64,000 nt of DNA. Source: Terriglobia bacterium. Its GTDB lineage: Bacteria; Acidobacteriota; Terriglobia; 20CM-2-55-15. This document shows, in pieces, positions 20,822 through 60,456 of the stretch. Made by a program: the position numbers and the translations under genes. Position 1 is the first letter of the stretch; every line of letters begins with the position of its first letter. The notes below the pieces were generated by a model, which saw only the letters and a list, made by a program, of their open reading frames with translations, did no database searches and was not told where the DNA came from. The stretch spans positions 4,808-68,807 of the forward strand of contig CBDHGK010000022.1 in assembly GCA_965263045.1 (NCBI GenBank), read 5' to 3'.

Positions 20822-21620
20822 TGAGCGACAGGTTGGGTCGACCAGACTCCGTCTCATGCAATCACCTCGAACAGCTGGTTGATGAACTGAATCTGTTGCC
20901 GAACATCCGAACCGCTCACCCACCTCGCCTGACCCTTCCGGATCATGTGCATGGCCTCATATCCCTGGATCGTTCGCCGCGCCGCGTGGAATTCACGAAA
21001 GCCCTGCTTGGCCTTCACGCGTCGTTTGGTCGCTCGATGATCCTGCTCCAGGATGTTGTTCAAGTATTGGATCGGCCGGTGACGGCAACGGTGTCGCAGG
21101 ATTCCTTCCTGCTTCACTCCTGAAATCGCAGAGCCATAGAGGGGCGCCTGGTCCGTATTGATAACCCGGGGCTGTCGATGCGACGGATCCGCCAGCGCCT
21201 TGCGGAACAGGCGTTTGGCCGTAGCGGCATCGCGTAACCCGGAGAGCACAAAATCGATCGTGGCTCCGGTGGAATCGATGGCGCGATAGAGATAGCACCA
21301 ACGGCCCTTGACACGAACGTAGGTCTCATCGACACGCCAGGACTTATTGGTTGGCTTGAGATGACGGCGCAGCCGCTCCTCCAGTTCAGGCCCGTAGCGC
21401 TGAACCCAGCGCCAGATTGTCGTGTGGTCCGCTTCCAGGCCGCGCTCGTTGAGCAGCTCTTCGACATCGCGGAACGAGAGCGAGTACCGCAGGTACCAGC
21501 GCACAGCGCAAAGAATCACCTCGGGCTCGGTTTGTCGCCACTTGAACATCGCCGGTCGGATTGTCTTTTTCATGATCTCTTCAGTTTACAAGGCACGGTT
21601 GGCCAAAGTTGCAACACAAC
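20822..21620 (-). mobile_element. IS6-family insertion sequence, subtype B, copy 1 (intact transposase; right IR GGCCAAAGTTGCAACACAAC; left IR apparently missing)
   Basis: Encodes the 239-aa DDE transposase MKKTIRPAMFKWRQTEPEVILCAVRWYLRYSLSFRDVEELLNERGLEADHTTIWRWVQRYGPE...INTDQAPLYG...IQYLNNILEQDHRATKRRV (IS26-like architecture). It shares a >750-bp backbone with copy 2 (23127..23959), but no matching IR is found at the left boundary. Confidence 0.75.
20854..21573 (-). CDS. IS6-family (IS26-like) DDE transposase, 239 aa, intact
   Basis: See above; full-length single ORF. Confidence 0.8.
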   Translation of the reverse strand: MKKTIRPAMFKWRQTEPEVILCAVRWYLRYSLSFRDVEELLNERGLEADHTTIWRWVQRYGPELEERLRRHLKPTNKSWRVDETYVRVKGRWCYLYRAIDSTGATIDFVLSGLRDAATAKRLFRKALADPSHRQPRVINTDQAPLYGSAISGVKQEGILRHRCRHRPIQYLNNILEQDHRATKRRVKAKQGFREFHAARRTIQGYEAMHMIRKGQARWVSGSDVRQQIQFINQLFEVIA

Positions 21621-23126: not shown

Positions 23127-23959
23127 GGAGGGATGTGTTGCAACTTTCAGAAATCAACAAGAGAGCGACCGGTTGGGTCGACCAGGCTCCGTCTCATGCA
23201 ACCACCTCGAATAGCTGGTTGATGAACTGAATCTGTTGCCGAACATCCGAACCGCTCACCCACCGCGCCTGAACCTTCCGGATCATGTGAATTGCCTCGT
23301 ATCCCTGGATCGTTCGCCGCGCCGCGTGGAATTCACGAAAGCCCTGCTTGCCTTTCACTCGTCGTTTGATCGCTCGATGATCCTGCTCCAGGATGTTGTT
23401 CAAGTATTGAACAGGCCGGCGGCGGCAACGGCGTCGCAGAATTCCTTCCTTTTTCACTCCTGAAATCGCCGCGCCATAGAGGCGTGCCTGGTCGGTGTTG
23501 ATGACGCGGGGCTGTGGATGCGACGGATCAGTCAGCGCCTTGCGGAACAGGCGTTTGGCCGCTGCGGCATCGCGCAACCCCGAGAGCACGAAGTCGATCG
23601 TGGCGCCGGTGGAATCGATGGCTCGGTAGAGGTAGCACCAACGCCCCTTGACACGAACGTAGGTCTCATCGACACGCCAAGATTGGTTGGTTGGCTTGAG
23701 ATGACGGCGTAGCCGCCCCTCCAGTTCGGGACCGTAGCACTGGACCCAGCGCCAGATTGTCGTGAGGTCTGCCTTCAGGCCGCGCTCGCCGAGGAGCCCT
23801 TCGACATCACGGAACGAGAGCGAGTACCGCAGCTACCCGCGTGCGCGTAAAGAATCAGCTCGCGCTCGGTTTGGCGCCACTTGAAGATCGCCGGTCGGAT
23901 TGTCTTTTTCATGATCACTTCAGGTTACCAGCCCCCGCCGGCCAAAGTTGCAACACAAC
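23127..23959 (-). mobile_element. IS6-family subtype B, copy 2 (both IRs present; transposase pseudogenised)
   Basis: IRs gatgtgttgcaactttcaga (23127) and ggccaaagttgcaacacaac (23940). The tnp C-terminal part 23194..23589 is intact in frame. The N-terminal part is frameshifted and hits a stop (gcgcgtaa near 23850). Confidence 0.7.
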
Positions 23960-25039: not shown

Positions 25040-25297
25040 ATGGAACATGACAGATTCTATGTTCCGTATCTGTCAGATAAAATACCAGAAGCCGCATTCC
25101 ATCGTCAGGCCGTGAAAACCGTTGCCTATCTGCGGGTCTCGACCGCTCAGCAGGACGTGGGCAGCCAGCGCCTCGCCATCCTCGAGTACACACGCAAACA
25201 CAACTTCCGCATCGACGATTTCATCGAGGCGACCGCCTCTGGACAGGCTTCCGAAAAGCGCCGCCGACTCGACGAGCTGATGAACGTTCTCCAGTGA
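25040..25297 (+). pseudogene. Serine recombinase (resolvase) N-terminal catalytic fragment, 85 aa, ending at the left boundary of a 20.5-kb insertion
   Basis: VAYLRVSTAQQDVGSQRLAILEY...IEATASGQASEKRRRLDELMNVLQ carries the resolvase active-site Ser context (YxRVST). A stop follows where resolvases continue with GDxLVVxxLDRLGRS. That continuation is found at 45753..46205. Confidence 0.7.
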
Positions 25298-25790
25298 TTT
25301 CGATAACGTAAAAAGGCCCCCCAACGGGGTTCTGATCGAGGAAAAAGGCAACAAGGCCCTCTTGACCCTATCGGGAAGATCAGATGAAAATCCAATGCCA
25401 GATGCAACAGTCTGGGGTATGGGAATCACTATGTGGCACTCCGAAATCGGCTCCATCGTCGAAGACGACATCGGTAAAGACGCTTGGGCGACGTTCCAGA
25501 GCACGGCCGACGAGCGCTACGGCTACGCCGGCAGACTCAGGAAGAATGCCCTCCATATAGGAGCGAGCATGGCCTTCGCCTGGGAGGCGGGAAAGCGGTC
25601 AGCCAACCTAGAACGACTTTGTACCGAAATTCTGAGTGCAGACAATAGCGTGCCTGTCGGATGAGGGGTCACCATTCTCCGGATAGCGCTGGTACAAAAC
25701 TTCGGCCTGGTCAGTGCCGGACGTGAAGATCATTGCGAACATCGGATTGCATCTGCTCCGATGTCGTCGGTCTACTCGCTCAGTGACACT

Positions 25791-28604
25791 TCAGAACCCG
25801 TATTTTTCCTTCCTCAAATTGAAGGCCGCTTCGCCTCCCTCCATGATCTGCTTGATCGCATTCCGCACGGCGTCAACATCGATCGCCCCTTCTCCCCCTA
25901 TTGCGCCACGCGTCTGGTCTCCGGTTGTCCTATGAGTGCACCAGGCGACAAGTTCGGCATCGCCGTTCACTACAAGATTTGCATTGTGACTCGCGAATAC
26001 GAGTTGTCGCTTTTGCTTCGCCTCCCAGACCCCTTCAACAATTTCGAGCATAACGGGATTATCCAGATCCTCTTCTGGCTGGTCGATGATTAGCGGAGAT
26101 CCTGGCTGGTTCAACAGCGTTTTCAGAAGCGCGGTGGCCTGCTGGCCAGCCGAAGCATTCCGAAATGAGATGTACTCCTGTTCGCGAGCTTGATATTCAA
26201 ATACGGGCACACTTTCTACCGGCGTGAGTGACAGCGTCAGCCAGTCATCTGGTGTCAGGCTGCGGCCGATCCCGTCTAGATTCGCCGCTGTTAGGCCCAC
26301 CTTTGTTAACGTCGGCGCTTCAGGTCGCTTGTCAGCACCGTCCCGTTCTTCATCGAACTCGGCCAGTTTTTCCAGGTCAGTCAGCATGCGATTCCAGATG
26401 GCTTTCCCTGCTTCTACCGTACTCGTCGATGAAGCGATGTTGCCCAGGCTATCGATTTTATTGCCGGGTACGCGAGATCCACTCACAGCCCGCTTCATAC
26501 CTTCTATGAAGTTCTCCGCATCTGTATATCGTTCCACGCGCGCACGAATGGCCCCGCCTGAATCGGCTGTGAGCTTTTCGCATTGCGCGTCGAGGGCACC
26601 ATCGCGCTCGCTGATCAGGATTTCCCATGCCTCCCGTTCAGCACGATAGGTTCCATCGGCCATCTCAAGCGATCGCAACTCTTCCTTGACACGGCCGGTC
26701 TCACGGACATGCGCCTGCAATTGCTCCTCGATCGCTTTCAGTTGTTCCATTGTTTCCCGATGTGCGGATGAACGCTCTACAGCGGAGTCGTATGCCTTGC
26801 TGAACTCCGTCCGTCTCTCTACCCACTTTCGCCACGGGCTATTTTCATCTATCGTTTCTGGGGCGCCAATCATCGCCCCAGCGCGGCTAATAAGGGAATC
26901 GAGACTAGTCTTCGCATCGGAGAGCAGATCTATATATTCATCCGCAGCTTCCCTCAAGATGTCACCCGCAGGATCGGGCGGCGTCGGCTCCGCCCCCGAG
27001 AGATGTGACTCAACCGTCCTGCGTAGGCTCTCGGCATCATTCTTGAACGTGCTTACCCCGTCTCGCCACGATTCAACCGCCTGGTTCGCGGCAGAAAACA
27101 CCTTGCCCCTGTCGAGAAGCGCACGGTCTTCATCGGATAGCCCTGTCAGCCCTGCGCGTAACGTCTCAGCTTGCTCGAAGAACGACTTTTCAGCGAGTTG
27201 CCGTTCTTCAAGCATCCGGGAAAGCGCACGGCCCCGCCGCAGCGTTGCATATGCTTCCCTAATCCTCTTCGCTCTGTCAGCCAGACGCCCCTCAATGTCG
27301 TCCAGCGCCAGGCGGATCGGCGCTGTGATGAATCTTGAGAGTTCATCCACGCGGACGCTCACATCACTAAGTTGCTTCTGGCTGTATGCTTGAATGGGGA
27401 GCAGTCGACGCACTTCTTCCTCAGAGCACTCGCGCATCTCATCACCGGCAATCTTCATCATCAAATCGCCGTTCTGACTCTCCCTCCGCACCTTGTGTGG
27501 CACGCCGTTTATTTCAAACTGCACCTCTGCGGTGGCGTTCAATGGTTTAAGCGTCTCCTCGATGAGACGCTTCCGCCGTCCCAGATAATTCGGTGTGTCG
27601 TCTTTCTCCATACCCGGCGGCGGCTGATCGCATAATGCCCACCGCAGGTATTCGAGGATCGTTGATTTGCCCGTCCCGCGGCCTCCAATCAGCGCGCTGT
27701 ATTGCGAATTGAATTCAAGATCAAAAGGACCGAGAAATTTACTGTTGCTGACAGAAATGCTGCTGATCGTAACAGTCGGTAGTCGCGGTTCTTCCTGGGA
27801 AACCCGCGATTCCTGTGCGAGACATGCTTGCCGTAGCGCCTCGGCCGTCGGGGTCGCCCATTTTGTCCAGGTCGAAACACTTCCCAGCTCTTGATGATCT
27901 TCACGCCGGCTATCCGACGTTTGGAACACCGCAATTCGCTTATATCCGTAGTCTCGAGCCTTGCCATTTATGATGGCCAGATTACCCTTACCCAAATTCC
28001 CGATCGAGCCATCGATATACCCGCCGACGCATGGCATTGCCTTGTACTTTGGTCCGGCCCCTGCCCGAATGAGCGTATCTTTTCCGCCATCACTAACGTT
28101 AGGGAAGATGATGTATCGTCCCCGCAGAAACTGGTGTTTATCCAGCTCGTCACGAAGCCGCACAAGTGTCGTAATCTGCTCCAGACGTGCTACCTCAGCC
28201 GTTGTCGGTTCCGACTGGGCGTGTGGGGTTATCGCGAGGGCCGTCAGCGCCAGTGAGAAAAGGTCCTCAGGCAGTTCTGCATCAAAAATAAGTAACGCCT
28301 GACACGGAACGTTCAGCGTCAACTCTATGCCTGGAAAAACGACAATCTGATTCTCTGCCGGCACGGCGTGTCCGCTATCATCCAACTCCGTTTTCGCTGC
28401 GTCGCGAATGTACTTCGTGAACGCCATATCGTGATGATCTGTAATGGCAACAGCATCAAGCTCTTTCTCTCGACAGGCCTGGATGAACCTCGCTGCATAC
28501 TCGCTCCGGTCCTCATCGGAACCATAGTGCCTTCCTGACCACTGCAGGTCTCTCGGCGTATGTACCTGAAAATCACAGCGGAAAAAATGCGCTCCTTTAT
28601 CCAT
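25791..28604 (-). CDS. PHP-domain phosphoesterase fused to an SMC/Rad50/SbcC-like ABC ATPase with a long coiled coil (937 aa); candidate defense nuclease-ATPase
   Basis: N-terminus FRCDFQVHTPRD...AVAITDHHDM is PHP-like (motifs I/II). Walker A LIGGRGTGKST sits at aa ~306. More than 400 aa of heptad-rich coiled coil follow. The C-terminal signature region contains LIIDQPEEDLD (Walker B/D-loop) and LVFASHNANLV (H-loop), both diagnostic of Rad50/SMC-type ABC ATPases. Confidence 0.7.
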   Translation of the reverse strand: MDKGAHFFRCDFQVHTPRDLQWSGRHYGSDEDRSEYAARFIQACREKELDAVAITDHHDMAFTKYIRDAAKTELDDSGHAVPAENQIVVFPGIELTLNVPCQALLIFDAELPEDLFSLALTALAITPHAQSEPTTAEVARLEQITTLVRLRDELDKHQFLRGRYIIFPNVSDGGKDTLIRAGAGPKYKAMPCVGGYIDGSIGNLGKGNLAIINGKARDYGYKRIAVFQTSDSRREDHQELGSVSTWTKWATPTAEALRQACLAQESRVSQEEPRLPTVTISSISVSNSKFLGPFDLEFNSQYSALIGGRGTGKSTILEYLRWALCDQPPPGMEKDDTPNYLGRRKRLIEETLKPLNATAEVQFEINGVPHKVRRESQNGDLMMKIAGDEMRECSEEEVRRLLPIQAYSQKQLSDVSVRVDELSRFITAPIRLALDDIEGRLADRAKRIREAYATLRRGRALSRMLEERQLAEKSFFEQAETLRAGLTGLSDEDRALLDRGKVFSAANQAVESWRDGVSTFKNDAESLRRTVESHLSGAEPTPPDPAGDILREAADEYIDLLSDAKTSLDSLISRAGAMIGAPETIDENSPWRKWVERRTEFSKAYDSAVERSSAHRETMEQLKAIEEQLQAHVRETGRVKEELRSLEMADGTYRAEREAWEILISERDGALDAQCEKLTADSGGAIRARVERYTDAENFIEGMKRAVSGSRVPGNKIDSLGNIASSTSTVEAGKAIWNRMLTDLEKLAEFDEERDGADKRPEAPTLTKVGLTAANLDGIGRSLTPDDWLTLSLTPVESVPVFEYQAREQEYISFRNASAGQQATALLKTLLNQPGSPLIIDQPEEDLDNPVMLEIVEGVWEAKQKRQLVFASHNANLVVNGDAELVAWCTHRTTGDQTRGAIGGEGAIDVDAVRNAIKQIMEGGEAAFNLRKEKYGF

Positions 28605-29107
28605 CAGTACCTCATCACTCCGAATCGGCGCTTTTCAGGCCAAAGTTTCGCGCGTTCTCTGAAACAGCGCATTTCACAGCATCCTTGGCGCCGTTTCCAC
28701 AACTGTTTCCAGGGTAATCGAAAGCCGGTCATTTTCGCTAGAGAACCCGGCGGCTCCAGAAGCAACAATCCATGACGTAGCGTTGGCCAACGACCCCCAC
28801 AATGTCGTCAAACAATTCAATTTGGCAATGCCACTTCCTGGCATATGAGAAGCGGATACCCGATCCGGTTTCCGGCTAGTTGGCAGGAATCGTCGTGAAA
28901 ACCTGCCCTGTGTATCGGAGCCCAAGCGCCCCGAATCTTTCAGATTGTCGCGACTTGATTTCAACGATTCCGCTGACACCTGCTGGGAGATTTAGCAGCA
29001 GCAGCAACCCCTGTTCCGGCTGGTACGGGCGAAACGTCGTCGGCATCGCGTTCTCTTCCTAACTGCGAGACAATTATCTCTTTCACTTCCTACGGCGCAG
29101 ACTCCTA

Positions 29108-29336
29108 GTGGTGTCAGTAACGCTCGTCAACTATGATCCCAATAATTTATTACTAATATCGCTTGTACGCCTCATTCGGGACAGTACTGGCAAGGACTTG
29201 GCAGAGGCGAAAGAAATCCTTGACCGGTTTGTCGAAGGTAAACCGTGTACTCTCTACTTCAGCAGCCGACAGACTGCAGGCGAGTTCGTGGTCCGTGCTA
29301 TAAATCTTGGGGCAATCGTTAAAGGGGGTTCTGGTG
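29108..29336 (+). CDS. Small protein resembling the ribosomal L7/L12 C-terminal domain, 3' end truncated or fused by an IS6 insertion
   Basis: LISLVRLIRDSTGKDLAEAKEILDRFVEGKPCTLYFSSRQTAGEFVVRAINLGAIVKG follows the L7/L12 CTD pattern (V-R..TG..LKEAK.LV...P..........A.......LGA.V). The IS6 IR (ggttctggtgcaga) begins at 29337 inside the ORF. Confidence 0.35.
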
Positions 29337-30154
29337 CAGATAGGATTGTCGGAGCGATAAGATCAGGAGTACGCATTCGGCAATGCGGACTATGCGGCCA
29401 TCACGTGACACCAGATCAGGGCAGGATTCGACTGCCATGGGATCGGAATTGCGAACTGGCGTTTGTGAATTTTCTGCGCCAACTCGATGCCGATAATCAC
29501 GCGTCGCGCATTGTAGAACGTCTTGAATCCCAACATCGGGCGCAATCGCCCCTTCACCCGGCGGTGGTCCTGCTCCACAACGTTGTTCAGATACTGACAG
29601 CAACGAATCGTCACCATGTTCCGCCCCCGGAAGTTGAACTCACCGTTCATTCCCATGCGCCGCAGCGCGCTATGGCTCGGCTGGTGGCCATCCAAGGTGA
29701 TGCTGTGTGGTTCCCGATGATGCTTCAGTGCCTTGCGAAAGAAGGCCTTCGCCGCCGCGATGCCACGTGTTCGACTCAGTTAGAACTCCACGGTGTTGCC
29801 CTGTCCGTCCACGGCGCGGTAGAGATACATCCACTGGCCCCGCACCTTGATAAACGTTTCATCAACCCGCCAACTCCCACCCACCGGTCGCTCGAATCGG
29901 CGCCAGCGCTTTTCGCAGGTTTCGGCATAGCGAACGACCCAAAGCAAGATCGTGGTGTGCGAAATCGATAAACCCCGTTCACCTAAAATCTCAACCAGGT
30001 CCCGGTAACTCAGTTTGAATCGAAAATACCAGCGAAGGCAGAGGAGAATGATGTCGTCTTCGAACCAACGTCCGGCAAATAGGGGATTCCGTTTAGTTTT
30101 GCGATGCGCCATATCCCATTATCGCCAAGTCCCTTCGCTATCTGCACCAGAACC
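29337..30154 (-). mobile_element. IS6-family subtype A copy (818 bp) with perfect 14-bp IRs; transposase frameshifted
   Basis: IRs at 29337-29350 and 30141-30154. tnp fragments 29780..30112 (MAHRKTKRNPLFAGRWFEDDIILLCLRWYF...) and 29390..29695. Confidence 0.85.
29390..30112 (-). pseudogene. IS6 transposase, frameshifted
   Basis: Two ORFs in different frames jointly cover the transposase. Confidence 0.65.
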
Positions 30155-30203: not shown

Positions 30204-33200
30204 CTACCCCTCCCGTCGGAATCCCGGTGGTGGGGCCTTAAACTCCGTGTCCGGCGACTTCTTGCCCTGCCATTCCCAGGCTGACTGGTCGATTGCCTCT
30301 TTCACCCCCGTCTTCTGCGCCCGCAGCAATTCCTTGACCGGCAGCCGGACGTCCGCTGTCAACATCAGCTCCCCACCGCGAAGGCTCGCCAATTCCCGCG
30401 CGTGGGTCCGCCGCGGGGTCCAGAGGAACGATCCACCGTATCGACCGTGATTCACCGACGCCAGGTTGACGTAGTTCTCGTAGGCACGCACCCAAGTGAG
30501 AGAGTCGAACAGATCTACGTCTTTGTTGAACGCCACCATCAGCAGGTGCAGCAACTCGCCCCGTAGCGCCCTCCAGGGAGCTGCATCGATCAGGTCCGCA
30601 CAGATTGCCACGGTGAAGTCTCCCCACCCAGGGTGCACGAATCGATACCAGCGCCGGCCCCGTAGCATCCGCCACTTCGTCAGCGACGCCTTCTTCGATA
30701 GCGCCCGCGCCAGACCGTCCTCGGTGTGCGCTGGCACGGGCTTTCTGACACGGAAACACCGCACCCCCGGCGGTCCACGGTCATCTCCAACCGGCACAAT
30801 CAGCTCCGCCTCGTTCACGAAACACGCCCATGTCGGCGTGAATCCCCTTGGCGGACGAAAAGCAGGCCTCAGCGCACGCCAATAGAGCCCCGCGACCGCC
30901 CCCTTGCCCTCTTTCCGCACTAGGGCCCGCAGGCTCGTGACCTCCTGCTGGGGGATTGCCAATTCCGGTAGCACCACCAAACGCGGACCCTCATCTCCAA
31001 CGCCCTGTGCCGGTGCCAGGAACACATTGGAAACCTGTTCAATCATCGCATTTGCCGTGGCCGACGAAATCGCCGGGAATCGCGTCACGACATCTGCTTC
31101 GTTCGGCCATGCGGTCACTTGGCCGACGCGTACGACCAGTTCATCGATGATCGAAGTGTCCGCAACGCGCAATTCGGAAGGCAAATCTGGGCCCCGCAAA
31201 TCGCCCGCTGGGCGAATCGTCCTGACGACCTCAAGATCCCCTCCTGTAGACAAACCAACGTCGATCCTCTCCGGCAGGAAGTCCTCCCAAGAGACACGGT
31301 CGCACGACCAGTCAGCCAGCGACTCGACGAGATGAACTCCAGATCCTGTCACATCCGATCCTGGCGATTCGCTCCAGCGTAGGACCCCCTCAATCGACTC
31401 CCAAGCCTTGAACGGCAGGTGAATCCGAGACCGCCATGCCCATCGATCCACGAATGGCGTGCCCCTGACACCCCATCGTGCTAAACCGTCGAGAATTCGT
31501 TCGTTGCCGTCCAGCACCGTCAGCAGGAGCAGCACGTCGCAGTACAGGACATAGCTATCCACGTGTACTCCGCGCGCGGCCGCCGACACGAACGGCAGAT
31601 AGAACGCCGCGTGCGGCACCACTTCCCATGCCGTCGACCTTTCCATTGACAGCGATTGATCGACTCGTTCCGGTTCCTCATCCAGGTCGAATTGCCAGCG
31701 GCGACCCGCAGCCAAAACGCCGTTCACATCCTTGATCCGCCAAGTTAGCGGTCCCTCTCTCGGCGCCCACCCCTCCGGTACCGCTATCGTGCGGACGACT
31801 GTGAGCAGCGCTGCGGAAACGCGACTAGGTAGGCCTACCGCCGGGGTCTCCCATGCGGACATCGGCCAGTCTTTCAGCCCGGTGTCCACGGGCGTGCCCC
31901 ACAGGAGCCTGTGCACTGTCGGCGTACTCGTGGGACTCGCCTCCTGACCGACGATCACACGTCGTGCGCGGGCGTAGTCGTGCAGCAGGAACGCATCGTG
32001 CTCGAGTGCTTTTACATCCCGGTGCAGTGAGGGAATCGCTTTGCGCGCCAGCGCCGACGTGATCCACTCGAAGCAGCCAAGAGCAAGCCCCGCCGCCAAC
32101 GCTCCCCGCGCATTATCCCCAACCCGCGAAATGCGCGGTTGGCCGGACGCCGGGAATAGAACACCGCCCAACTTGTCATTCCAATGACCCAACTGCACGT
32201 TCGCCAGCGCCCAGTTGTCCAGATTCCGATTGCGCCTCGGCCCCGTATGCTGCAGCCTCCCGAAATTCGACAGAAGCCCGGTCGCCTTCGGCATTTCCTC
32301 AAGTTGTGCGGTCGACGGCACAAGCAATACCGATCCCGGCCCCGCGGTGCTCCGCCATGCCTCCGCGAGTTCCAACGTCGAGTGCGTCGCCAAGATCGCT
32401 TCGACAAACTCGTCCAGTTCCCACGGCCACGCGGTGATGTCTACAACGCTGGTCGCCGGATAGAGTATGCCCACCCATTGATCGATTCGGCCCAAAGACG
32501 CCGCCACCTGCGCGTGGTTCCCTTCCCCGGCGGCTCTCGTGGTCCAGAGAACCGGTGAAGCCACCCACATGTCCGCTTCCTCATGCGCCACCGGCTCGGC
32601 ATGCCGTTCCAATTCACGCACCACTTGCGCGAGCGCCCGCCAAAACGCCGCTCGGAGGAACGACAGATAGAGTTCCCGCCAACCGTCCGTCCGCTCGGTG
32701 GCGTGTCCGTCATCGGTATCTATCTCCGGCCACGCGCTCAGCCACGCCGCCGACTCTTGCCGGTCGCTCACGCAAGCGATTCGACGGAGCTGATTGCACA
32801 ACCACCTTGACGCCTCTTGAGCGGTATCGCTATTGTTCTCCGGCTCGCCAAGCGGGCGCCGCGCCGCGCCGCGAACTACCGCACGCCAGATCGCGAATTT
32901 CCATGGCGTCCGGTCCAGCACGAAACTGATCGTCTCTCGGATTTGGTGCAAGTTCCGGTGCTGCTCGCCGGCCTCCCGGGCCTTCGGCAACCAAGCACGA
33001 ACAAGCCGGTTGACGGAGAACGTGCGACGCGTATCCGGCCGCACCTGCTCGTCCTCAATGTCGAAGCGCGCCAGTTCGTGCAGTCGCGCCAGGTGATCCC
33101 GGGCACCCTCGCCGAACCGCTGGCGAAGGGTGTCCGTCCCCATGTCGCTCAACAGTTCGACCAGGCTCGTGACGAACGGACCGACGTCCCCTTGCTCGAT

Positions 33201-34631
33201 CGCCGCGCGCTCCAACGCCTCGCGGTGGGACGTGAATTCGTCGCTGCTCGACTTGACCGCCCACCAGTCCGACACCCCCCCGGTCGCGTGCACTCCCAGT
33301 GGCGGTGGCAACGGCTGTTTGCATTTCTCGTTTTCGCACTCGGTCCAACCATTCTCTAGGAGGTACTTGCCAATTACTGCCTGCACCGCATTCGGCTTGA
33401 TTTTCTTGAAACTTATGCAGATGTTTGAGCCCTCATTCGGGGTCGCAAGCGACGCCGCTCCGGTTCCCGATAATGCTCCGTGAACGGCTTCGACGAGGGA
33501 AAATAGGCCACCTAACGATCTCGACAACACGTACATGTCGTCTGCAAACCTGACTATGGCCCCTCGATCCTTCCCTGAGGTCCCTGCGAGATAACGCCCG
33601 ATCACTCGATCCGGCTCCAGGAGTACCACATTGAGCAACACCCCGGAGATGGCTAGCCCTGTAGGTATCCCTTCGTATGGCTCCACGGCTACCCTTGGCA
33701 ACGGGTGACCCTGTGGAGGTCCCCAGGAATCCAGGGGGATTCCACAGGGGTCCAGCGTGACTTCCCCCAAGGCTTTCGTCAGCCGGCGTCCAATTTCCAC
33801 CCGAACATCCTCGACGGCAAGCGCTTCCAATACCGGTTTCGGACAACCGTCAAACAGCCCATTGAAGTCGACCGACTGCCGGAGCGCGTCTTCCATTGCC
33901 ACGGCCAAACGCTCGATGCGCACCGATGGGTACGCCAATTCGATATCCAAGGCCCCCCAGCGCGCGCGTGGCGAGTCGACTGGTCCTTGCCACCAAGCCT
34001 CTCCCGTCCACTTCGGAAGCGTGTCTTCCCCATAGTCCTCGGGAATCTGTACAGGATCCGAGTCGTTGTCCGCTGGCAGCGTCGCTTTCGTCATCCGAGC
34101 CACGGTCCAATGCGCCACGCGCCGAAACAACCCATGCGATCGAGCGTATGAAAGGAAGATTCTGTCCGTGAGCACCGGATATGGACGGTGCACCCACCGT
34201 GCCGGTTTTGCCCGACGATCCCAGGCGATTGGCCGATACCACCGATTCCCGAAGGCGAAGTTCGCAACCTGTACATCGAGGATCGGCCCCACCGCGACCA
34301 TGTGGGCCATGAACGCCACTTGGTCCCGCACCGTCGGCATCACGTAGTGCCTCAGCCGCGCACCCTTCTTCGGGTAGGGCACCTGACGCCATCGTTCCGG
34401 CTTCCAGTTGCCGTCGCGCAACGCCGTCGCCAGATCTCGAAGCATCGCATCGGGGTACAGCCTCCATCGCGATAGTTCCGGCTGCGGCGCCAGATTCCCA
34501 CCTCTGTACCAGGAATCCACACGCATCCAAGCACCCTGAAGGATCACCGGATTCCCAAGCACCTCCGCTGCCTTCTGTGCGTTGTGTTCCGAGTTCATGC
34601 GTCCATTCGGCCTCTGCCCCTCCGTAGGCAC
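30204..34631 (-). CDS. Reverse transcriptase-nitrilase fusion protein (1475 aa); defense-associated RT of the DRT type 1 / UG1-UG5 kind
   Basis: The N-terminal ~400 aa hold RT motifs. These are RLYPDAMLRDLATALRDGNW...VPYPKKGARLRHYVMPTVRDQVAFMAH (motifs 1-2), YEGIPTGLAISGVLLNVVLLEPDRVI (motifs A-B), and RFADDMYVLS (a YxDD-type catalytic box with F in place of Y). The C-terminal ~270 aa carry the carbon-nitrogen hydrolase catalytic triad context: LVVLPELAIP (Glu), FRVRKPVPAHTEDG (Lys) and FTVAICADLIDAAPW (Cys). About 750 aa of unassigned sequence lie between. Confidence 0.75.
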   Translation of the reverse strand: MPTEGQRPNGRMNSEHNAQKAAEVLGNPVILQGAWMRVDSWYRGGNLAPQPELSRWRLYPDAMLRDLATALRDGNWKPERWRQVPYPKKGARLRHYVMPTVRDQVAFMAHMVAVGPILDVQVANFAFGNRWYRPIAWDRRAKPARWVHRPYPVLTDRIFLSYARSHGLFRRVAHWTVARMTKATLPADNDSDPVQIPEDYGEDTLPKWTGEAWWQGPVDSPRARWGALDIELAYPSVRIERLAVAMEDALRQSVDFNGLFDGCPKPVLEALAVEDVRVEIGRRLTKALGEVTLDPCGIPLDSWGPPQGHPLPRVAVEPYEGIPTGLAISGVLLNVVLLEPDRVIGRYLAGTSGKDRGAIVRFADDMYVLSRSLGGLFSLVEAVHGALSGTGAASLATPNEGSNICISFKKIKPNAVQAVIGKYLLENGWTECENEKCKQPLPPPLGVHATGGVSDWWAVKSSSDEFTSHREALERAAIEQGDVGPFVTSLVELLSDMGTDTLRQRFGEGARDHLARLHELARFDIEDEQVRPDTRRTFSVNRLVRAWLPKAREAGEQHRNLHQIRETISFVLDRTPWKFAIWRAVVRGAARRPLGEPENNSDTAQEASRWLCNQLRRIACVSDRQESAAWLSAWPEIDTDDGHATERTDGWRELYLSFLRAAFWRALAQVVRELERHAEPVAHEEADMWVASPVLWTTRAAGEGNHAQVAASLGRIDQWVGILYPATSVVDITAWPWELDEFVEAILATHSTLELAEAWRSTAGPGSVLLVPSTAQLEEMPKATGLLSNFGRLQHTGPRRNRNLDNWALANVQLGHWNDKLGGVLFPASGQPRISRVGDNARGALAAGLALGCFEWITSALARKAIPSLHRDVKALEHDAFLLHDYARARRVIVGQEASPTSTPTVHRLLWGTPVDTGLKDWPMSAWETPAVGLPSRVSAALLTVVRTIAVPEGWAPREGPLTWRIKDVNGVLAAGRRWQFDLDEEPERVDQSLSMERSTAWEVVPHAAFYLPFVSAAARGVHVDSYVLYCDVLLLLTVLDGNERILDGLARWGVRGTPFVDRWAWRSRIHLPFKAWESIEGVLRWSESPGSDVTGSGVHLVESLADWSCDRVSWEDFLPERIDVGLSTGGDLEVVRTIRPAGDLRGPDLPSELRVADTSIIDELVVRVGQVTAWPNEADVVTRFPAISSATANAMIEQVSNVFLAPAQGVGDEGPRLVVLPELAIPQQEVTSLRALVRKEGKGAVAGLYWRALRPAFRPPRGFTPTWACFVNEAELIVPVGDDRGPPGVRCFRVRKPVPAHTEDGLARALSKKASLTKWRMLRGRRWYRFVHPGWGDFTVAICADLIDAAPWRALRGELLHLLMVAFNKDVDLFDSLTWVRAYENYVNLASVNHGRYGGSFLWTPRRTHARELASLRGGELMLTADVRLPVKELLRAQKTGVKEAIDQSAWEWQGKKSPDTEFKAPPPGFRREG

Positions 34632-34896
34632 TTCCGGCGCACGTCAAACCATTCGCCAGAGCGCGCGACTCAGTTTACGGCTGCGCGTCCTTCTCGATTG
34701 ATCTGTTTCACCAAGGTCAGTCGCTTGACTTCGGTCTCTCCGGGCCGGTGGGGATGGCCGCTCCTCGAGTACACGCATGCGAAGTTGCGAACCGTGACCA
34801 GTTTTCCAGGGAGTCCATGGGTGCGCTGAAGACATCCGGAGAGTACCAGAATCTTCGTATCTCGGGCCTCCCGGTCAAGCGACTCTGCCGCCGTCT

Positions 34897-35142
34897 CTAC
34901 TTCGGGTGCGCGATGATAGTGTGGAGGACGTAGTCGTCCCCTTCGATGGTGAAATAAAAACGCCAAGATCGATTGACCCTGGCTTGCCACAAGCCCGTGG
35001 ACTCGTCGTATTTCTTGGCGTGCAGCGACGGATGCTGAAGGTTGTCGGCGAGGAACCGCTCCTGCTTGTCGAATGCGCGCTGCACATCGGCCGGCGCGGC
35101 TGAATAGTCTTTCTCGAACCTGGCGGTGTGAATGAGCCGCAT
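34897..35142 (-). CDS. RelE/ParE-family type II toxin (81 aa)
   Basis: MRLIHTARFEKDYSAAPADVQRAFDKQERFLADNLQHPSLHAKKY...WQARVNRSWRFYFTIEGDDYVLHTIIAHPK follows the RelE/ParE fold pattern. The start abuts the upstream antitoxin stop. Confidence 0.65.
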   Translation of the reverse strand: MRLIHTARFEKDYSAAPADVQRAFDKQERFLADNLQHPSLHAKKYDESTGLWQARVNRSWRFYFTIEGDDYVLHTIIAHPK

Positions 35143-35454
35143 CTACCGGCGGCTTGCCTTCTTCGTTCGACGCGCCCCGGCAATCTTGTGGAGCGACGCC
35201 GTCGCCTGCTCCGCGGTGTCGAACGGCCCGGAGTACCTGCCGCTCTTGAAGTCCTCCATGCTTTCTCGAAAGGCCGCGTGCAGGCGGCTGTCGATGAGCG
35301 TCTTCGGCGTCATGACGACTCTGCCCTGCTGTTCTTCGACCTCGAGGTAGTCGCCGGGTTTGAGGCCGAGACGGTCGTGCAGCTTCTTGGGGATCACGAC
35401 CTGGCGGCTCACACCCAACTTGACGGTAGTTGGCGCGTCGGATTGTTTTTTCAT
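35143..35454 (-). CDS. AbrB/MazE/SpoVT-type antitoxin (103 aa)
   Basis: VKLGVSRQVVIPKKLHDRLGLKPGDYLEVEEQQGRVVMTP is the looped-hinge-helix AbrB domain. It lies immediately upstream of the RelE-like ORF. Confidence 0.6.
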   Translation of the reverse strand: MKKQSDAPTTVKLGVSRQVVIPKKLHDRLGLKPGDYLEVEEQQGRVVMTPKTLIDSRLHAAFRESMEDFKSGRYSGPFDTAEQATASLHKIAGARRTKKASRR

Positions 35455-35509
35455 ATATTTGTATATTACAACTAGAGCGGGCGTCGGTCAACTAATGTGC
35501 CTGATCGAG

Positions 35510-35879
35510 GACCACCGGTGTTGCCCTCTCCGTCCACGGCTCGATACAGGTACATCAACTGGCCCCGCACCTTGATAAACGTTTCATCAACCCGCCAACT
35601 CCCGCCCACCGGCCGCTCGAATCGGCTCCAACGCTTTTCGCAGGTTTCGGCATAGCGAATGACCCAACGCAAGATCGTGGTGTGCGAAATCGATAAACCC
35701 CGCTCACCTAAAATCACGACCAAGTCTCGGTAACTCAGTTTGAAGCGAAAATACCAGCGAAGGCAGAGGAGAATGATGTCGTCTTCGAACCAACGTCCGG
35801 CAAATAGAGGATTCCGTTCAGTTTTGCGATGCGCCATAACCCATTATCGCCAAGTCCCTTCGCTGTCTGCACCAGAACC
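35510..35879 (-). mobile_element. IS6 subtype A fragment (right IR plus the first ~120 codons of tnp; 5' half deleted)
   Basis: IR tctgcaccagaacc at 35866-35879. ORF 35472..35837 begins MAHRKTERNPLFAGRWFEDDIILLCLRWYF and loses homology after ...LMYLYRAVDGEGNT. Confidence 0.75.
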
Positions 35880-36256: not shown

Positions 36257-37441
36257 TCACTCCTCCGAATCCTTGGGAGGCGGCAGGTTCAGCAACTCGT
36301 CGACCGTCATGACGCTTTGCGTCACCTGAGCAGAAACCCACAGGGAACGCGCGGCCGGTTCCGGTAGGTTGGTCGTGTAGATCGTCCCGGACAGCTCGAG
36401 GGCCCCGCTCTCCGCCTTCCCGATATAGAAGACCTCGGACCACACCGGCCGTCCGGGCTGCAGATCGCCGCAGTCGATCTCGATGCGGTATCGGTCAGTG
36501 TTCGAGTCAATCTCCACTGCACCGGGCATGTTCAGCGATGGGTCATTGATCGATGCAAGAGCATCGATATCCCACGGATATGATATTTTCTTGGGTGCCC
36601 GCGGCAGTTCCGTGCCGTCCTTGACGACGACGCCGATGTCGGCCGGAATCCGCAGCTCACAGCGAACGTCCTGGGCTGCGACGCGTCCGACGTTTCTCAC
36701 GAGGATGCGCACGGGCCGAAATAAGCGTCGCGCGGAGGCATAGGCGGCCAGTTCTCGATAGTAATCGGGATTCGTCTGGATCATCGTATCTTCCAGGGTG
36801 CCGAGGCGCGAGCTGTAACGGGCCGGGTTGAAATACGGAATGTCGTCTGCGGGAGGCATCTCGCAGGACTCAGCGTCGAACGAAATCTTCGTACCGAGTG
36901 AATTCTCGCGCTCGATGTGGGCAAACTCGATCACGAGTTCGGTCGGCTCCGGTTCCGCCACTTGGCCCATCAACGCAACTTCCTCGGGCAAGGCGGGACT
37001 TGTGGGGTCCGTCGACGTTCCCCGGCGAATGTAGACTTGGTGCTTTTCGAGCTTTCCGTATGGCCGTTTCAGATAGATTGGCCGCGTCTGCTTATCGATT
37101 CGGATAATACCGACGTTCTTGCCCTCCAAGCGAAACGCCTCGTAGTGGAAACGCACGGGGCGGTTCGTCAGTCGGTTTACGAACTGCTGGAGCGAGTGGT
37201 CGTCGAGATGTTCAGTTGCTGGTATTCCCGTCACCTTGCTCCTGACGCCCCGAACTTCTTCGACGCCGATCAAGATGTACCCTTCAGAACGCCGCCACGC
37301 ATTGGCGAAGCCGAGTATGTCCTTGAGCAGCTCCGCCTTTTCGTCCTTCGATGCCTTTGCGAAGCGATACTGCTCTTTCTTGAAGTCCAGAGTCGGGCTC
37401 TCTTCCTCGAAGAGGAGGCGTTCAACTAGTCCGTTGTTCAT
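36257..37441 (-). CDS. AlbA_2 (Schlafen-like, divergent AAA) domain protein with an unknown C-terminal domain (394 aa)
   Basis: N-terminus ESPTLDFKKEQYRFAKASKDEKAELLKDILGFANAWRRSEGYILIGVEEVRG matches the AlbA_2 pattern (E..LEFK........l.kdi.afANt.GG.lliGv.d). Confidence 0.6.
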   Translation of the reverse strand: MNNGLVERLLFEEESPTLDFKKEQYRFAKASKDEKAELLKDILGFANAWRRSEGYILIGVEEVRGVRSKVTGIPATEHLDDHSLQQFVNRLTNRPVRFHYEAFRLEGKNVGIIRIDKQTRPIYLKRPYGKLEKHQVYIRRGTSTDPTSPALPEEVALMGQVAEPEPTELVIEFAHIERENSLGTKISFDAESCEMPPADDIPYFNPARYSSRLGTLEDTMIQTNPDYYRELAAYASARRLFRPVRILVRNVGRVAAQDVRCELRIPADIGVVVKDGTELPRAPKKISYPWDIDALASINDPSLNMPGAVEIDSNTDRYRIEIDCGDLQPGRPVWSEVFYIGKAESGALELSGTIYTTNLPEPAARSLWVSAQVTQSVMTVDELLNLPPPKDSEE

Positions 37442-45576: not shown

Positions 45577-45630
45577 GTGGATCAATCTCCCCTTCTCCGC
45601 CATTGGTTGTCACAAATCTCACAGACCTTG

Positions 45631-60452: not shown

Positions 60453-60456
60453 CTAG

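What the first reader, a model, noticed from the sequence alone, without database searches (positions are those of the whole stretch)
25791..28604. Single-polypeptide PHP phosphoesterase + Rad50/SbcC-like ABC ATPase (937 aa): an apparent one-gene SbcCD/Mre11-Rad50 analogue in a defense island
The N-terminal ~250 aa look like a PHP-family metal-dependent phosphoesterase (CDFQVHTPRD...ITDHHDM). These are followed by Walker A (GGRGTGKST), more than 400 aa of coiled coil, and the Rad50/SMC-type C-terminal Walker B/D-loop/H-loop block (LIIDQPEEDLD...FASHNANL). Defense ABC ATPases are usually paired with Toprim (OLD, Gabija, PARIS), HNH (Septu) or other effectors. I am not aware of a characterised system in which the nuclease partner of an SMC-like ATPase is a fused PHP domain, so this is a candidate uncharacterised single-gene system. 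It is separated from the RT-nitrilase gene only by an IS6 copy and a truncated small ORF. Both genes are on the same strand, so co-function cannot be excluded.
Basis: partly seen in the sequence, partly recalled or inferred. Interest (0 to 1): 0.75.

Follow-up and report, generated by a model that had tools for sequence, protein, structure and literature searches.

The report
Ppl-like PHP–SMC ATPase gene (TrlF family)
This is an intact, stand-alone gene of the already named TrlF family, a sister of the known single-gene anti-phage nuclease Ppl, so the architecture is not new; its clade does carry a strictly conserved rewiring of the PHP metal site that nobody has tested.

Summary
The 937-aa ORF is real. 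It lies at 25791..28604 on the minus strand and every quoted motif is present. It scores 523 bits, full length, against NCBIfam NF045780 'TrlF family AAA-like ATPase' (cut-off 350). Its N-domain is homologous to the PHP domain of the anti-phage protein Ppl (hhalign 95%). The rest is an SMC/Rad50-class ABC ATPase head with a helical insertion (Foldseek E 8e-12).

The domain call is therefore right, but the novelty claim is wrong. Ppl (Gao 2020; Xu 2026) is exactly a PHP plus Rad50-like ATPase in one polypeptide.

Co-function with the RT-nitrilase is unsupported. None of the 25 other loci has one, and the two genes sit in separate IS6-bounded modules. No TrlG or TrlR partner is present. DNA similarity to the closest relative covers only the gene plus about 100 bp on the upstream side. 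Relatives sit in defence islands and on more than 1,100 plasmids.

One feature is new. In 80 of 84 cluster representatives, four canonical PHP histidines are replaced by conserved Gln13, Gln102, Asn/His169 and Arg233. Gln13 is the equivalent of Ppl H12, whose mutation abolishes defence.

The most likely function is a nucleotide-gated single-gene defence nuclease with altered metal chemistry. It is untested. Interest is modest.

The parts
25791..28604 (-). Complete TrlF-family gene: 937 aa, ATG start at 28604, stop codon at 25791-25793
   Evidence: ORF list and translation. NCBIfam NF045780: residues 3-936 match profile positions 1-944 of 944, 523 bits against a cut-off of 350. End-to-end alignment with 937-aa homologues.
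27795..28604 (-). N-terminal PHP-like phosphoesterase domain (residues about 1-270) with the variant site Q13, H15, (D19), H57, E94, Q102, N169, D231, R233
   Evidence: Pfam PHP, below threshold in this protein (18.2 bits) but hit in 9 of 10 relatives. hhalign to the Ppl PHP domain: 95%. Site mapping from alignment A1. Conservation in 80 of 84 representatives. Fold search weak or inconclusive.
27366..27773 (-). ABC ATPase head, N-lobe (residues 278-413): Walker A GGRGTGKST at 307-315; Q-loop region YSQKQL at 407-412
   Evidence: Pfam AAA_23, SMC_N and AAA_15. Invariant columns. Model pLDDT of about 80-90 in much of this segment, with dips at residues 329-338 and from about 400. Motif census.
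26229..27362 (-). Helical (coiled-coil-like) insertion between the two ATPase lobes (residues 415-792). Long helices at 415-485, 491-536, 547-579, 590-611, 616-645 and 649-681. No CxxC zinc hook.
   Evidence: AlphaFold2 model secondary structure, pLDDT mostly 77-94. Foldseek matches to SMC, Rad50 and JetC heads with coiled coil. CxxC search negative.
25794..26216 (-). ABC ATPase head, C-lobe (residues 797-937): signature SAGQQ at 818-822; Walker B IIDQPE at 839-844 (D841-Q842); D-loop DLD at 846-848; H-loop H873
   Evidence: Pfam AAA_21. 39% identity to the Ppl C-terminus. DQPE found in 82 of the 82 superfamily members where the motif was located.
28605..28706 (-). 102-bp leader conserved with the closest relative. 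This is the upstream limit of the conserved cassette; the presumed promoter/RBS region, with no sigma-70 consensus found.
   Evidence: blastn to L001 at 90% identity spans window 28706..25714 only. The promoter scan found nothing in the leader. Sequence.
29390..30112 (-). Boundary, not part of the system: IS6-family transposase remnant split into two ORFs. It separates the TrlF cassette from the RT-nitrilase module.
   Evidence: Pfam DDE_Tnp_IS240 on both ORFs. Direct repeat 29791-30090 / 35516-35815 at 94%.
25040..25297 (+). Boundary, not part of the system: truncated N-terminus (85 aa) of a serine recombinase, convergent with the 3' end of the gene
   Evidence: Pfam Resolvase, profile positions 2-59 of 145 only. 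Large serine recombinases are the commonest neighbour of relatives.

Best explanation
The gene encodes a solitary TrlF-family protein, a sister of the anti-phage protein Ppl. One polypeptide carries a PHP-fold phosphoesterase and an SMC/Rad50-class ABC nucleotide-binding head split by a helical arm about 10 nm long.

**Shown here**
- Family membership.
- Homology of both halves to Ppl.
- Autonomy: there is no conserved partner, and the cassette is the gene plus about 100 bp upstream.
- Residence in defence islands, plasmids and recombinase-borne islands.

**Inferred mechanism, by analogy with Ppl**
1. Two protomers engage their heads around bound NTP.
2. Walker B is D-Q rather than D-E in the whole superfamily, so the head probably acts as a slow or non-hydrolysing nucleotide sensor rather than a motor.
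3. At normal NTP levels the enzyme is held off.
4. When an invading phage or plasmid depletes nucleotides and exposes DNA ends, the PHP domain attacks DNA and infection stops.

**Specific to this clade**
Four canonical PHP histidines are replaced by conserved Gln13, Gln102, Asn/His169 and Arg233, while His15, His57, Glu94 and Asp231 are kept. I infer a site that binds fewer or harder metal ions (Mg/Mn rather than three Zn), with Arg233 standing in for the third metal. The site would be still catalytic, but its chemistry, or possibly its substrate, is not identical to that of Ppl.
For: **Family and homology**
- NF045780: 523 bits, full length.
- Ppl models hit at E 6e-47 (NCBIfam) and 4e-39 (PADLOC).
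- BLASTP to Ppl: C-lobe 39% identical, E 2e-20; N-domain E 2e-14.
- hhalign of the N-domain: 95%.
- Foldseek of the ATPase part to SMC, Rad50, JetC, LmuB and SbcC.
- DQPE is universal in the superfamily, Ppl included.

**What is known of Ppl**
- It is a single-gene defence.
- H12A abolishes it.
- It is a ssDNA 3'-5' exonuclease inhibited by NTPs bound to both domains, and activated by NTP depletion plus 3'-OH ends (primary reference named).

**Autonomy**
- No neighbour family recurs in 21 loci.
- In a Pfam census of 137 neighbours, no family was found in more than 5.
- Cassette limits.

**Context**
- SspC/D, type I R-M, SNF2, BrxH and MADS-like genes among neighbours.
- DndB, PAPS reductase, HD-CE and DUF1156.
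- AbiEi/AbiEii and an Abi family protein directly upstream of TrlF-family genes on plasmids.
- 1,114 plasmid records carry a relative, 805 of them conjugative.

**Constrained variant site**
- 80 of 84 representatives, down to 30% identity.
Against: - No member of the TrlF family has been shown to defend against anything. In Photorhabdus, no trlF mutant and no trlF phenotype was obtained.
- Gln13 corresponds to the residue that is essential in Ppl (H12), so Ppl-type catalysis cannot be assumed.
- The window protein is below Pfam's PHP gathering score.
- The mapping of two of the substituted positions (Q102, N169) depends on the alignment. MAFFT, BLAST and HMMER-to-2ANU agree, but hhalign shifts them.
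- The mechanism of Ppl is taken from a review sentence and a reference title. The primary paper could not be read.
Confidence: 0.6

Rival explanations
1. The PHP-like domain of this clade is no longer a DNA nuclease. With four His ligands replaced, it would be a nucleotide or small-phosphoester hydrolase, or a pure ligand-binding sensor. The protein would then act by another route, for example nucleotide degradation, or DNA clamping and blocking by the SMC-like head.
For: - Q13 replaces the His that is essential in Ppl.
- Q102, N169 and R233 replace further canonical ligands, and all are conserved in 80 of 84 representatives.
- Established knowledge: the PHP family includes histidinol-phosphatases and nucleotide phosphatases as well as nucleases.
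- Walker B D-Q suggests binding rather than turnover.
Against: - H15, H57, E94 and D231 are invariant, together with extra conserved H58, D56 and D59. This looks like an active metal site, not a decayed one.
- 29 of 84 representatives keep His at position 169.
- The fusion to a DNA-handling SMC-class head argues for a nucleic-acid substrate.
Confidence: 0.2
2. It is a housekeeping or plasmid-maintenance DNA-end-processing enzyme (a functional SbcCD/Mre11-Rad50 analogue for repair or replication), not an immune gene.
For: - Structural similarity to Rad50 and SbcC heads.
- Some plasmid copies lie next to replication and partition genes: RepA in Sphingobium, RepE/ParA in E. coli.
Against: - Patchy distribution with near-identical cassettes in unrelated contexts, and 38-60% identical copies spread across many phyla including an archaeon.
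- Neighbours are defence and mobile-element genes, not repair operons.
- No zinc hook, and Walker B is D-Q.
- The sister protein Ppl is a defence protein.
Confidence: 0.1
3. It is one component of a multi-gene system whose partner is nearby. Candidates are a TRL-type operon (TrlR-TrlF-TrlG), the adjacent RT-nitrilase, or a DNA methyltransferase (restriction-modification-like).
For: - In Photorhabdus and on a P. syringae plasmid, trlF is followed by trlG.
- The window has an AlbA_2 protein 7.6 kb upstream.
- Methyltransferases lie next to the gene in about 4 of 20 loci, and hsdM-hsdS-trlF are contiguous in L011.
Against: - The window's AlbA_2 protein lacks HATPase_c_4 and does not align with TrlG (E 0.058).
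- The TrlG-linked TrlF sequence examined (P. syringae plasmid) is the His-type, not this Gln-type clade.
- No RT-nitrilase or TrlG was found in the other 25 loci.
- No neighbour family recurs.
- IS6 copies separate the modules.
- Cassette limits.
Confidence: 0.07

Closest known systems
Ppl (anti-phage protein Ppl; NCBIfam NF042955; PADLOC Ppl; Gao et al. 2020; Xu et al. Mol Cell 2026)
   Same: - Single polypeptide of about 900 aa with an N-terminal PHP domain, a linker helix, and a Rad50/SMC-like ABC head split by a helical insertion.
- C-lobe 39% identical, with the same DQPE(D/E)DLD Walker B, signature and H-loop.
- N-domains homologous.
- Stand-alone gene on mobile DNA.
   Different: - Only 160 bits against the Ppl model, whose cut-off is 1000; overall identity is about 24%.
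- Ppl has the canonical PHP ligand set H-H-H-E-H-H-D-H. This clade has Q-H-H-E-Q-N/H-D-R.
- Ppl H12, which is essential, corresponds to Gln13 here.
- Ppl is experimentally validated; this clade is not.
TrlF of the Photorhabdus temperature-restriction locus, and the enterobacterial/Pseudomonas plasmid 'TrlF family AAA-like ATPase' (NF045780)
   Same: - The same curated family model is passed at full length.
- Same architecture, with 25% identity end to end to the E. coli plasmid member.
   Different: - The namesake sits in a trlR-trlF-trlG operon. Here there is no TrlG or TrlR.
- The plasmid and TrlG-linked members examined are His-type (H-H-H-E-H-H-D-K) and 870-900 aa. This clade is Gln-type and about 935 aa.
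Mre11-Rad50 / SbcCD
   Same: A phosphoesterase combined with an SMC-class ABC ATPase that has a coiled-coil insertion. Rad50 and SbcC heads are among the structural matches.
   Different: - The nuclease here is PHP-like, not a calcineurin-type Mre11/SbcD, and it is fused rather than a separate subunit.
- The helical arm is short and has no CxxC zinc hook.
- Walker B is D-Q instead of D-E.
SMC-like defence ATPases with separate or fused effectors: Lamassu LmuB, Wadjet JetC, MADS mad3; and (from memory, not tested here) RloC/PrrC
   Same: - SMC-class head with coiled coil used in defence; structural matches to LmuB and JetC.
- PADLOC hits to mad3 and LmuB.
- RloC is a precedent for a Rad50-like ATPase fused to a nuclease in one chain.
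   Different: - Those systems use Cap4, Toprim or anticodon-nuclease effectors and usually several genes.
- None of them uses a PHP domain.
- PADLOC scores to these models are weak (E 1e-7 to 1e-12) and partial.

Membership tests
TrlF family AAA-like ATPase (NCBIfam NF045780) | Whole-protein HMM score above the curated cut-off, with full-length coverage | tested here: met
   523.2 bits against a cut-off of 350. Residues 3-936 match profile positions 1-944 of 944. The 74%-identical homologue P0019 is named TrlF family by NCBI.
TrlF family AAA-like ATPase (NCBIfam NF045780) | Operon context trlR-trlF-trlG as in the namesake locus (a property of the namesake, not a requirement of the model) | tested here: not met
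   No TrlG or TrlR in the window. The AlbA_2 protein at 36257..37441 lacks HATPase_c_4 and aligns with TrlG only at E 0.058. tblastn with TrlG finds nothing in the window or in the 20 loci of this clade.
Ppl (NCBIfam NF042955 / PADLOC Ppl) | Whole-protein score above the curated cut-off | tested here: not met
   160.1 bits against a cut-off of 1000, in three partial stretches. The PADLOC Ppl hit has E 4e-39, with the best stretch covering only 803-933.
Ppl (NCBIfam NF042955 / PADLOC Ppl) | PHP domain plus ABC NTPase head with helical insertion in one chain, encoded by a stand-alone gene | tested here: met
   for the architecture. for autonomy.
Ppl (NCBIfam NF042955 / PADLOC Ppl) | Catalytic H-x-H motif (H12 essential for defence) | tested here: not met
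   The window reads F-Q13-V-H15-T. Gln is present in 80 of 84 representatives. H12A kills Ppl.
Ppl (NCBIfam NF042955 / PADLOC Ppl) | Anti-phage activity; NTP-inhibited ssDNA 3'-5' exonuclease | not testable with these tools
   This needs expression, phage challenge and biochemistry.
PHP superfamily (Pfam PF02811) | Significant profile match to the PHP domain | tested here: inconclusive
   - Window protein: 18.2 bits, below the gathering score of 26.4.
- 9 of 10 relatives hit PF02811 at the same place, one of them above the gathering score at 29.3 bits.
- Profile against the PDB: TM0559 (2ANU) at E 0.017.
- hhalign to the Ppl PHP domain: 95%.
PHP superfamily (Pfam PF02811) | Distorted (beta-alpha)7 barrel fold | tested here: inconclusive
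   - The model shows a beta/alpha alternation but pLDDT is 54.
- Foldseek found nothing significant.
PHP superfamily (Pfam PF02811) | Full set of canonical metal ligands: H-x-H, H, E, H, H, D-x-H | tested here: not met
   H15, H57, E94 and D231 are retained. Q13, Q102, N169 and R233 are substituted, and the substitutions are conserved.
SMC/Rad50-class ABC ATPase | Walker A, Q-loop, signature motif, D-loop and H-loop, with the two lobes separated by a coiled-coil insertion | tested here: met
   - GGRGTGKST, YSQKQL, SAGQQ, DLD and H873.
- Long helices 415-681 between the lobes.
- Foldseek: 5xei at 8e-12, 7zr1, 9qxx, 7nyw, 9hqx, 4ad8 and 7yzp.
SMC/Rad50-class ABC ATPase | Walker B Asp followed by the catalytic Glu (hhhhD-E) | tested here: not met
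   The window reads IID841-Q842-PE. DQPE was found in 82 of the 82 superfamily members where the motif was located, and never DEPE.
Mre11-Rad50 / SbcCD | Calcineurin-type Mre11/SbcD nuclease partner and a CxxC zinc hook at the coiled-coil apex | tested here: not met
   No metallophosphoesterase hit in the protein. No conserved neighbour. No CxxC in residues 420-790.
DRT (RT-nitrilase) system as a shared module | Recurrent co-occurrence of the two genes | tested here: not met
   0 of the 25 other loci have an RT-nitrilase. The RT-nitrilase is bracketed by its own IS6 direct repeats.

The most novel reading that the evidence does not exclude
The Gln-type TrlF clade would be a functionally distinct branch of the Ppl-like PHP-SMC proteins. 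It comprises dozens of 50%-identity clusters among the best 150 representatives, spread over many bacterial phyla and at least one archaeon. Its remodelled site (Q13, H15, H57, E94, Q102, N/H169, D231, R233) would use a different metal stoichiometry and/or act on a different substrate than the ssDNA 3'-5' exonuclease of Ppl. That would give a second, uncharted mode of nucleotide-gated single-gene immunity, one that current defence finders do not call.
Probability: 0.3. Interest if true: 0.55.

Novelty: new variant of a known kind. Interest (0 to 1): 0.35.

Why it matters
**What is settled.** The headline claim, a first PHP-plus-SMC-ATPase single-gene system, does not hold. That kind is known as Ppl, and this gene already falls in a named family. 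The gene should be annotated as TrlF family, Ppl-like, and treated as independent of the neighbouring RT-nitrilase.

**What remains worthwhile.** TrlF itself has no demonstrated function. The clade found here is large, spread across phyla and horizontally mobile. It falls far below NCBI's curated Ppl cut-off and matches the PADLOC Ppl model only partially. It also carries a strictly conserved replacement of four PHP metal-binding histidines, including the one shown to be essential in Ppl.

**What testing would show.** It would tell whether Ppl-type nucleotide-gated immunity extends to this much larger family. It would also show how a PHP site works with a Gln/Gln/Asn/Arg ligand set.

Tried and rejected
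1. **Plus-strand reading of the coordinates.** It is full of stops. The gene is on the minus strand.
2. **Direct PDB sequence search with the protein.** No hit. With the N-domain profile, only a weak hit to TM0559. No Ppl structure is in the PDB copy.
3. **Structural proof of the PHP fold.**
   - The N-domain AlphaFold2 model from 21 sequences was poor (pLDDT 54), and the full-length model was also weak in that region.
   - I do not count this as confirmation.
4. **TrlG partner hypothesis.** The window's AlbA_2 protein looked promising, but it is not a TrlG.
5. **RT-nitrilase co-function.** Rejected.
6. **Systematic methyltransferase partnership (R-M-like).** Found in only about 4 of 20 loci.
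7. **Megablast of the region against plasmids.** No match. The genome scan with a single-protein query returned only 17 loci.
8. **Sigma-70 promoter or intrinsic terminator around the gene.** Nothing above the shuffled expectation.
9. **Primary Ppl paper (Mol Cell 2026).** Not held. The mechanism is cited second-hand from PMC12904381.
10. **hhalign placement of two ligand positions.** It differs from MAFFT, BLAST and HMMER. I kept the majority mapping and flag the uncertainty.
Full report
**1. Observation**

The window contains a 937-codon ORF at 25791..28604, ATG start, stop included. It is on the minus strand, and the plus-strand frame is full of stops.

It is a real gene. More than 2,588 homologues were found, and the best 120 are 59-100% identical, most over the full length and nearly all about 935 aa. 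An exhaustive HMMER search of 1.84 billion cluster representatives found 6,499 relatives at E<=1e-3 and 716 at E<=1e-30.

**2. What it is**

Family:
- The protein matches NCBIfam NF045780 'TrlF family AAA-like ATPase' end to end. Residues 3-936 align to profile positions 1-944 of 944, at 523 bits against a curated cut-off of 350.
- A 74%-identical metagenomic homologue already carries that name in NCBI.
- It also hits, partially and far below cut-off, the models for the anti-phage protein Ppl (NCBIfam 160 bits against 1000; PADLOC E 4e-39) and for the Spaf_1101 family.

Origin of the name:
- TrlF comes from the Photorhabdus 'temperature restriction locus' trlR-trlF-trlG.
- There, mutations in trlG (AlbA_2 + HATPase_c_4) give temperature tolerance.
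- No mutation or phenotype was obtained for trlF, which was annotated as a histidinol phosphatase (PMC7554251).

Domains:
- Pfam finds AAA_23 (283-550) and AAA_21 (772-878), plus sub-threshold SMC_N and sub-threshold PHP (40-98).
- An AlphaFold2 model of the full protein (pLDDT 70.9) shows an ABC head N-lobe (278-413), a set of long helices (415-681), shorter helices to 792, and a C-lobe (797-935).
- Foldseek against the PDB returns SMC heads with coiled coil (5xei, E 8e-12), Rad50 (7zr1), Wadjet JetC, MukB, Lamassu LmuB, RecN and SbcC.
- The 'Rad50/SMC-type ATPase' call is therefore correct.
- There is no CxxC zinc hook in the helical insertion, and the long-helix part is about 265 aa rather than more than 400.

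**3. The N-terminal domain**

Evidence for PHP homology:
- PF02811 is hit at the same place in 9 of 10 family members, one above the gathering score.
- A profile of the domain finds the PHP protein TM0559 (2ANU) in the PDB at E 0.017.
- hhalign of the clade alignment against the Ppl N-domain gives 95% probability, E 3e-8, over 229 columns.

Structural confirmation failed:
- The N-domain model was poor (pLDDT 54, pTM 0.60).
- Foldseek gave nothing significant.
- I accept PHP homology on profile evidence and mark the fold test as inconclusive.

**4. A conserved rewiring of the PHP site**

I aligned the clade with a bona fide Ppl (WP_015059139.1, from plasmid pEC2_2) and with an E. coli plasmid TrlF. 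The canonical PHP ligand positions read differently here:

| Ppl motif | Ppl residue | Window residue |
|---|---|---|
| FHNHT | H12 | Q13 |
| FHNHT | H14 | H15 |
| SDHN | H | H57 |
| VELT | E | E94 |
| VHIL | H | Q102 |
| AHID | H | N169 |
| SDAH | D | D231 |
| SDAH | H | R233 |

Distribution across 84 full-length representatives of 50%-identity clusters, 30-63% identical to the query:
- 80 carry Q-H-H-E-Q-(N 51 / H 29)-D-R.
- R18, D19, D56, H58 and D59 are also nearly invariant.
- Ppl has H-H-H-E-H-H-D-H.
- The E. coli plasmid TrlF and two representatives have H-H-H-E-H-H-D-K, and the P. syringae TrlG-linked copy shows His-type motifs at the positions inspected (DFHLHT, GIHTL).

A preprint reports that Ppl H12A abolishes defence against T7 (10.1101/2022.06.16.496414). 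The residue essential in Ppl is thus naturally Gln in this clade.

The replacements are strictly conserved, so the site is under selection and not decaying.

My inference rests on general knowledge of trinuclear PHP sites and was not tested. I expect a site with fewer or harder metal ions, in which Arg233 takes the place of the third metal.

One caveat applies. The mapping of Q102 and N169 is supported by MAFFT, by BLAST to the E. coli TrlF and by HMMER to 2ANU, but hhalign shifts both.

**5. The ATPase**

- Walker A, the Q-loop region, the signature (SAGQQ), the D-loop and the H-loop are conserved.
- Walker B reads IID-Q-PE. DQPE was found in all 82 superfamily members where the motif could be located, including Ppl and the plasmid TrlFs, and DEPE was never found.
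- In ABC/SMC ATPases, Glu-to-Gln at this position is the classical hydrolysis-deficient, head-engaged mutant (established knowledge; 'EQ' SMC3 heads are even among the Foldseek hits).
- This fits the description of Ppl as a protein inhibited by bound NTPs rather than driven by hydrolysis (PMC12904381).
- Whether E844 can act as an alternative base is unknown.

**6. Partners and context**

No conserved partner:
- I gathered 21 loci of this clade from metagenomes and genomes. They are 38-88% identical and come from Proteobacteria, Acidobacteria, Verrucomicrobia, Bacteroidota, Firmicutes, Planctomycetes, Omnitrophota and an archaeon.
- All-against-all clustering of neighbours found no recurring family.
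- A Pfam census of 137 neighbours within 6 kb found no family in more than 5 of them. The commonest were large serine recombinases, ResIII/DEAD helicases, TraD-like coupling proteins and DNA methylases.

Defence and mobile context:
- A PADLOC scan of the same set found SspC/SspD, type I methylase and specificity subunits, SNF2 DrmD/ZorD/HmaA-like helicases, BrxH, and MADS mad2/mad8.
- tblastn against plasmids found relatives on 1,114 records, 805 of them conjugative, annotated either 'TrlF family AAA-like ATPase' or 'anti-phage protein Ppl'.
- The closest plasmid relative is 55.7% identical, on a Sphingobium plasmid, next to repA.
- In the annotated plasmid loci inspected the gene has no TrlG partner: between ccdAB and vapB, after an Abi family gene, after abiEi/abiEii, and with no recognisable partner in Klebsiella.
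- The only trlF-trlG junction seen was the His-type copy on a P. syringae plasmid, where trlF is frameshifted.

**7. The window itself**

- DNA similarity to the closest relative (L001, 90%) runs only from 28706 to 25714: the gene, 102 bp upstream and 77 bp downstream. L001's contig ends 19 bp beyond the match, so only the upstream limit is informative. The conserved unit is a single-gene cassette.
- Upstream lies an IS6-family transposase remnant split into two ORFs (29390..30112). Downstream lie a truncated serine-recombinase N-terminus (25040..25297), an unassignable 100-aa fragment, and an SLT-domain gene.
- IS6 sequences recur in direct orientation: 21000-21299 / 23340-23639 at 89%, and 29791-30090 / 35516-35815 at 94%.
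- The second pair brackets the 1,475-aa RT-nitrilase gene (30204..34631; PADLOC RTasNitrilase E 7e-36). That gene is therefore a separate module.
- None of the 25 other loci holding a relative of the TrlF gene has an RT-nitrilase.
- A 394-aa AlbA_2 protein at 36257..37441 recalled TrlG. It lacks HATPase_c_4, aligns with a real TrlG only at E 0.058, and matches the PADLOC candidate PDC-S50. It is not a TrlG.

**8. How it most likely works**

Shown:
- Family membership.
- Homology of both halves to Ppl.
- Autonomy of the gene.
- Defence and mobile-element context.
- A constrained variant PHP site.
- A universal D-Q Walker B.

Inferred by analogy with Ppl (review PMC12904381; primary paper Xu et al., Mol Cell 2026, identified but not readable):
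1. Head dimerisation around NTP keeps the enzyme off.
2. Nucleotide depletion and exposed DNA 3' ends during infection release the PHP domain.
3. The PHP domain then degrades DNA.

For this clade the catalytic chemistry cannot be assumed to be identical, because the H12 equivalent is Gln.

Confidence and rivals:
- 0.6 that it is a single-gene, nucleotide-gated defence nuclease of the Ppl kind.
- 0.2 for a non-nuclease PHP-like domain (small-molecule phosphoesterase or sensor).
- 0.1 for a housekeeping or plasmid-maintenance role.
- 0.07 for a multi-gene system with a nearby partner.

**9. Comparison and novelty**

- The architecture is that of Ppl, and the family is TrlF.
- It is not a Ppl orthologue: the score cut-off and the H-x-H motif are not met.
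- It is not an Mre11-Rad50/SbcCD member: no calcineurin-type nuclease, no zinc hook, and D-Q in Walker B.
- I rate it a new variant of a known kind. It belongs to a large, uncharacterised Gln-type branch of the Ppl/TrlF superfamily.
- Interest is modest (0.35). A specialist would not be surprised by the architecture. The conserved active-site rewiring, and the fact that TrlF has no demonstrated function, make a cheap and clear experiment worthwhile.

Noticed in passing
window 30204-34631 (-): A very large (1,475 aa) reverse-transcriptase-nitrilase protein. PADLOC gives RTasNitrilase E 7e-36, RT_UG5-nitrilase, Drt1a and RT_UG6. It has RT-like stretches at both about 30-130 and about 316-560. 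Pfam returned no family at E<=0.01, which is odd for an RT-nitrilase. The gene is bracketed by IS6 direct repeats (29791-30090 / 35516-35815, 94%), together with an unassigned 273-aa ORF (34670-35491).
   Followed up: partly
window 36257-37441 (-): A 394-aa protein with an N-terminal Schlafen/AlbA_2 domain (Pfam E 1.6e-16) that matches the PADLOC candidate PDC-S50 (E 3e-17). It has no recognisable C-terminal domain and is not a TrlG. It is probably a separate single-gene defence candidate.
   Followed up: partly
window about 13640-14216, 20854-21573, 23194-23639, 29390-30112, 35472-35837 and about 56248-56485: At least five or six IS6-family copies or fragments, several in direct orientation, cut the region into modules in an IS26-like pseudo-compound-transposon pattern. 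The 287-aa ORF at 29108-29971 (+) is an antisense artefact of IS6 sequence: it has paralogous hits at the other IS6 sites.
   Followed up: partly
window 25040-25664 (+): Directly beyond the 3' end of the TrlF gene lie a truncated serine-recombinase N-terminus (85 aa) and then a 100-aa ORF with no family hit. Large serine recombinases are the commonest neighbours of TrlF relatives, so this may be the remnant of the island's original recombinase.
   Followed up: partly
L011:89-5719 and L021:3367-10468: In a Phycisphaerales contig, hsdM, hsdS and the TrlF gene are contiguous, with 1-4 bp overlaps or gaps. A second locus has a fused N6 methylase nearby, and L002/L003 have an N6_N4 methylase 160 bp upstream. 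TrlF genes are sometimes embedded in R-M loci (about 4 of 20 loci), but not systematically.
   Followed up: partly
L006:616-1917 and L018:7889-9247: A TRAM + U5-type RNA methyltransferase gene lies just upstream of the TrlF gene both in an uncultured archaeon and in a Christensenella MAG. This is either coincidence or a co-transferred pair.
   Followed up: no
L026:3491-7297 (P. syringae plasmid PP4): The only trlF-trlG junction seen. Here trlF is split by a frameshift (185 + 714 aa) while trlG is intact and annotated 'RNA-binding domain-containing protein'. The TrlF is of the canonical His-type.
   Followed up: partly
window 25791-28604 and all relatives (Walker B, residues 841-844): Walker B reads D-Q-P-E in every member of the Ppl/TrlF superfamily where the motif was located (82 of 82). 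This is a natural equivalent of the hydrolysis-dead 'EQ' mutation of SMC and ABC ATPases.
   Followed up: yes
window 53772-55475 (-) and 60271-62439 (-): A protein with a Mu-transposase C-terminal domain (567 aa), and a 722-aa AAA_11 / nSTAND3-like NTPase further along. These are more mobile-element and possible defence content in the same window.
   Followed up: no
window 15238-16212 (-) and 43510-45603 (-): Two Sel1-repeat proteins with 8 and 15 repeats, plus a CARDB/fn3 giant protein (1015-5967) and a TonB-dependent receptor with a CarboxypepD_reg domain (8674-11886). This is host-chromosome-like content flanking the IS-rich island.
   Followed up: no
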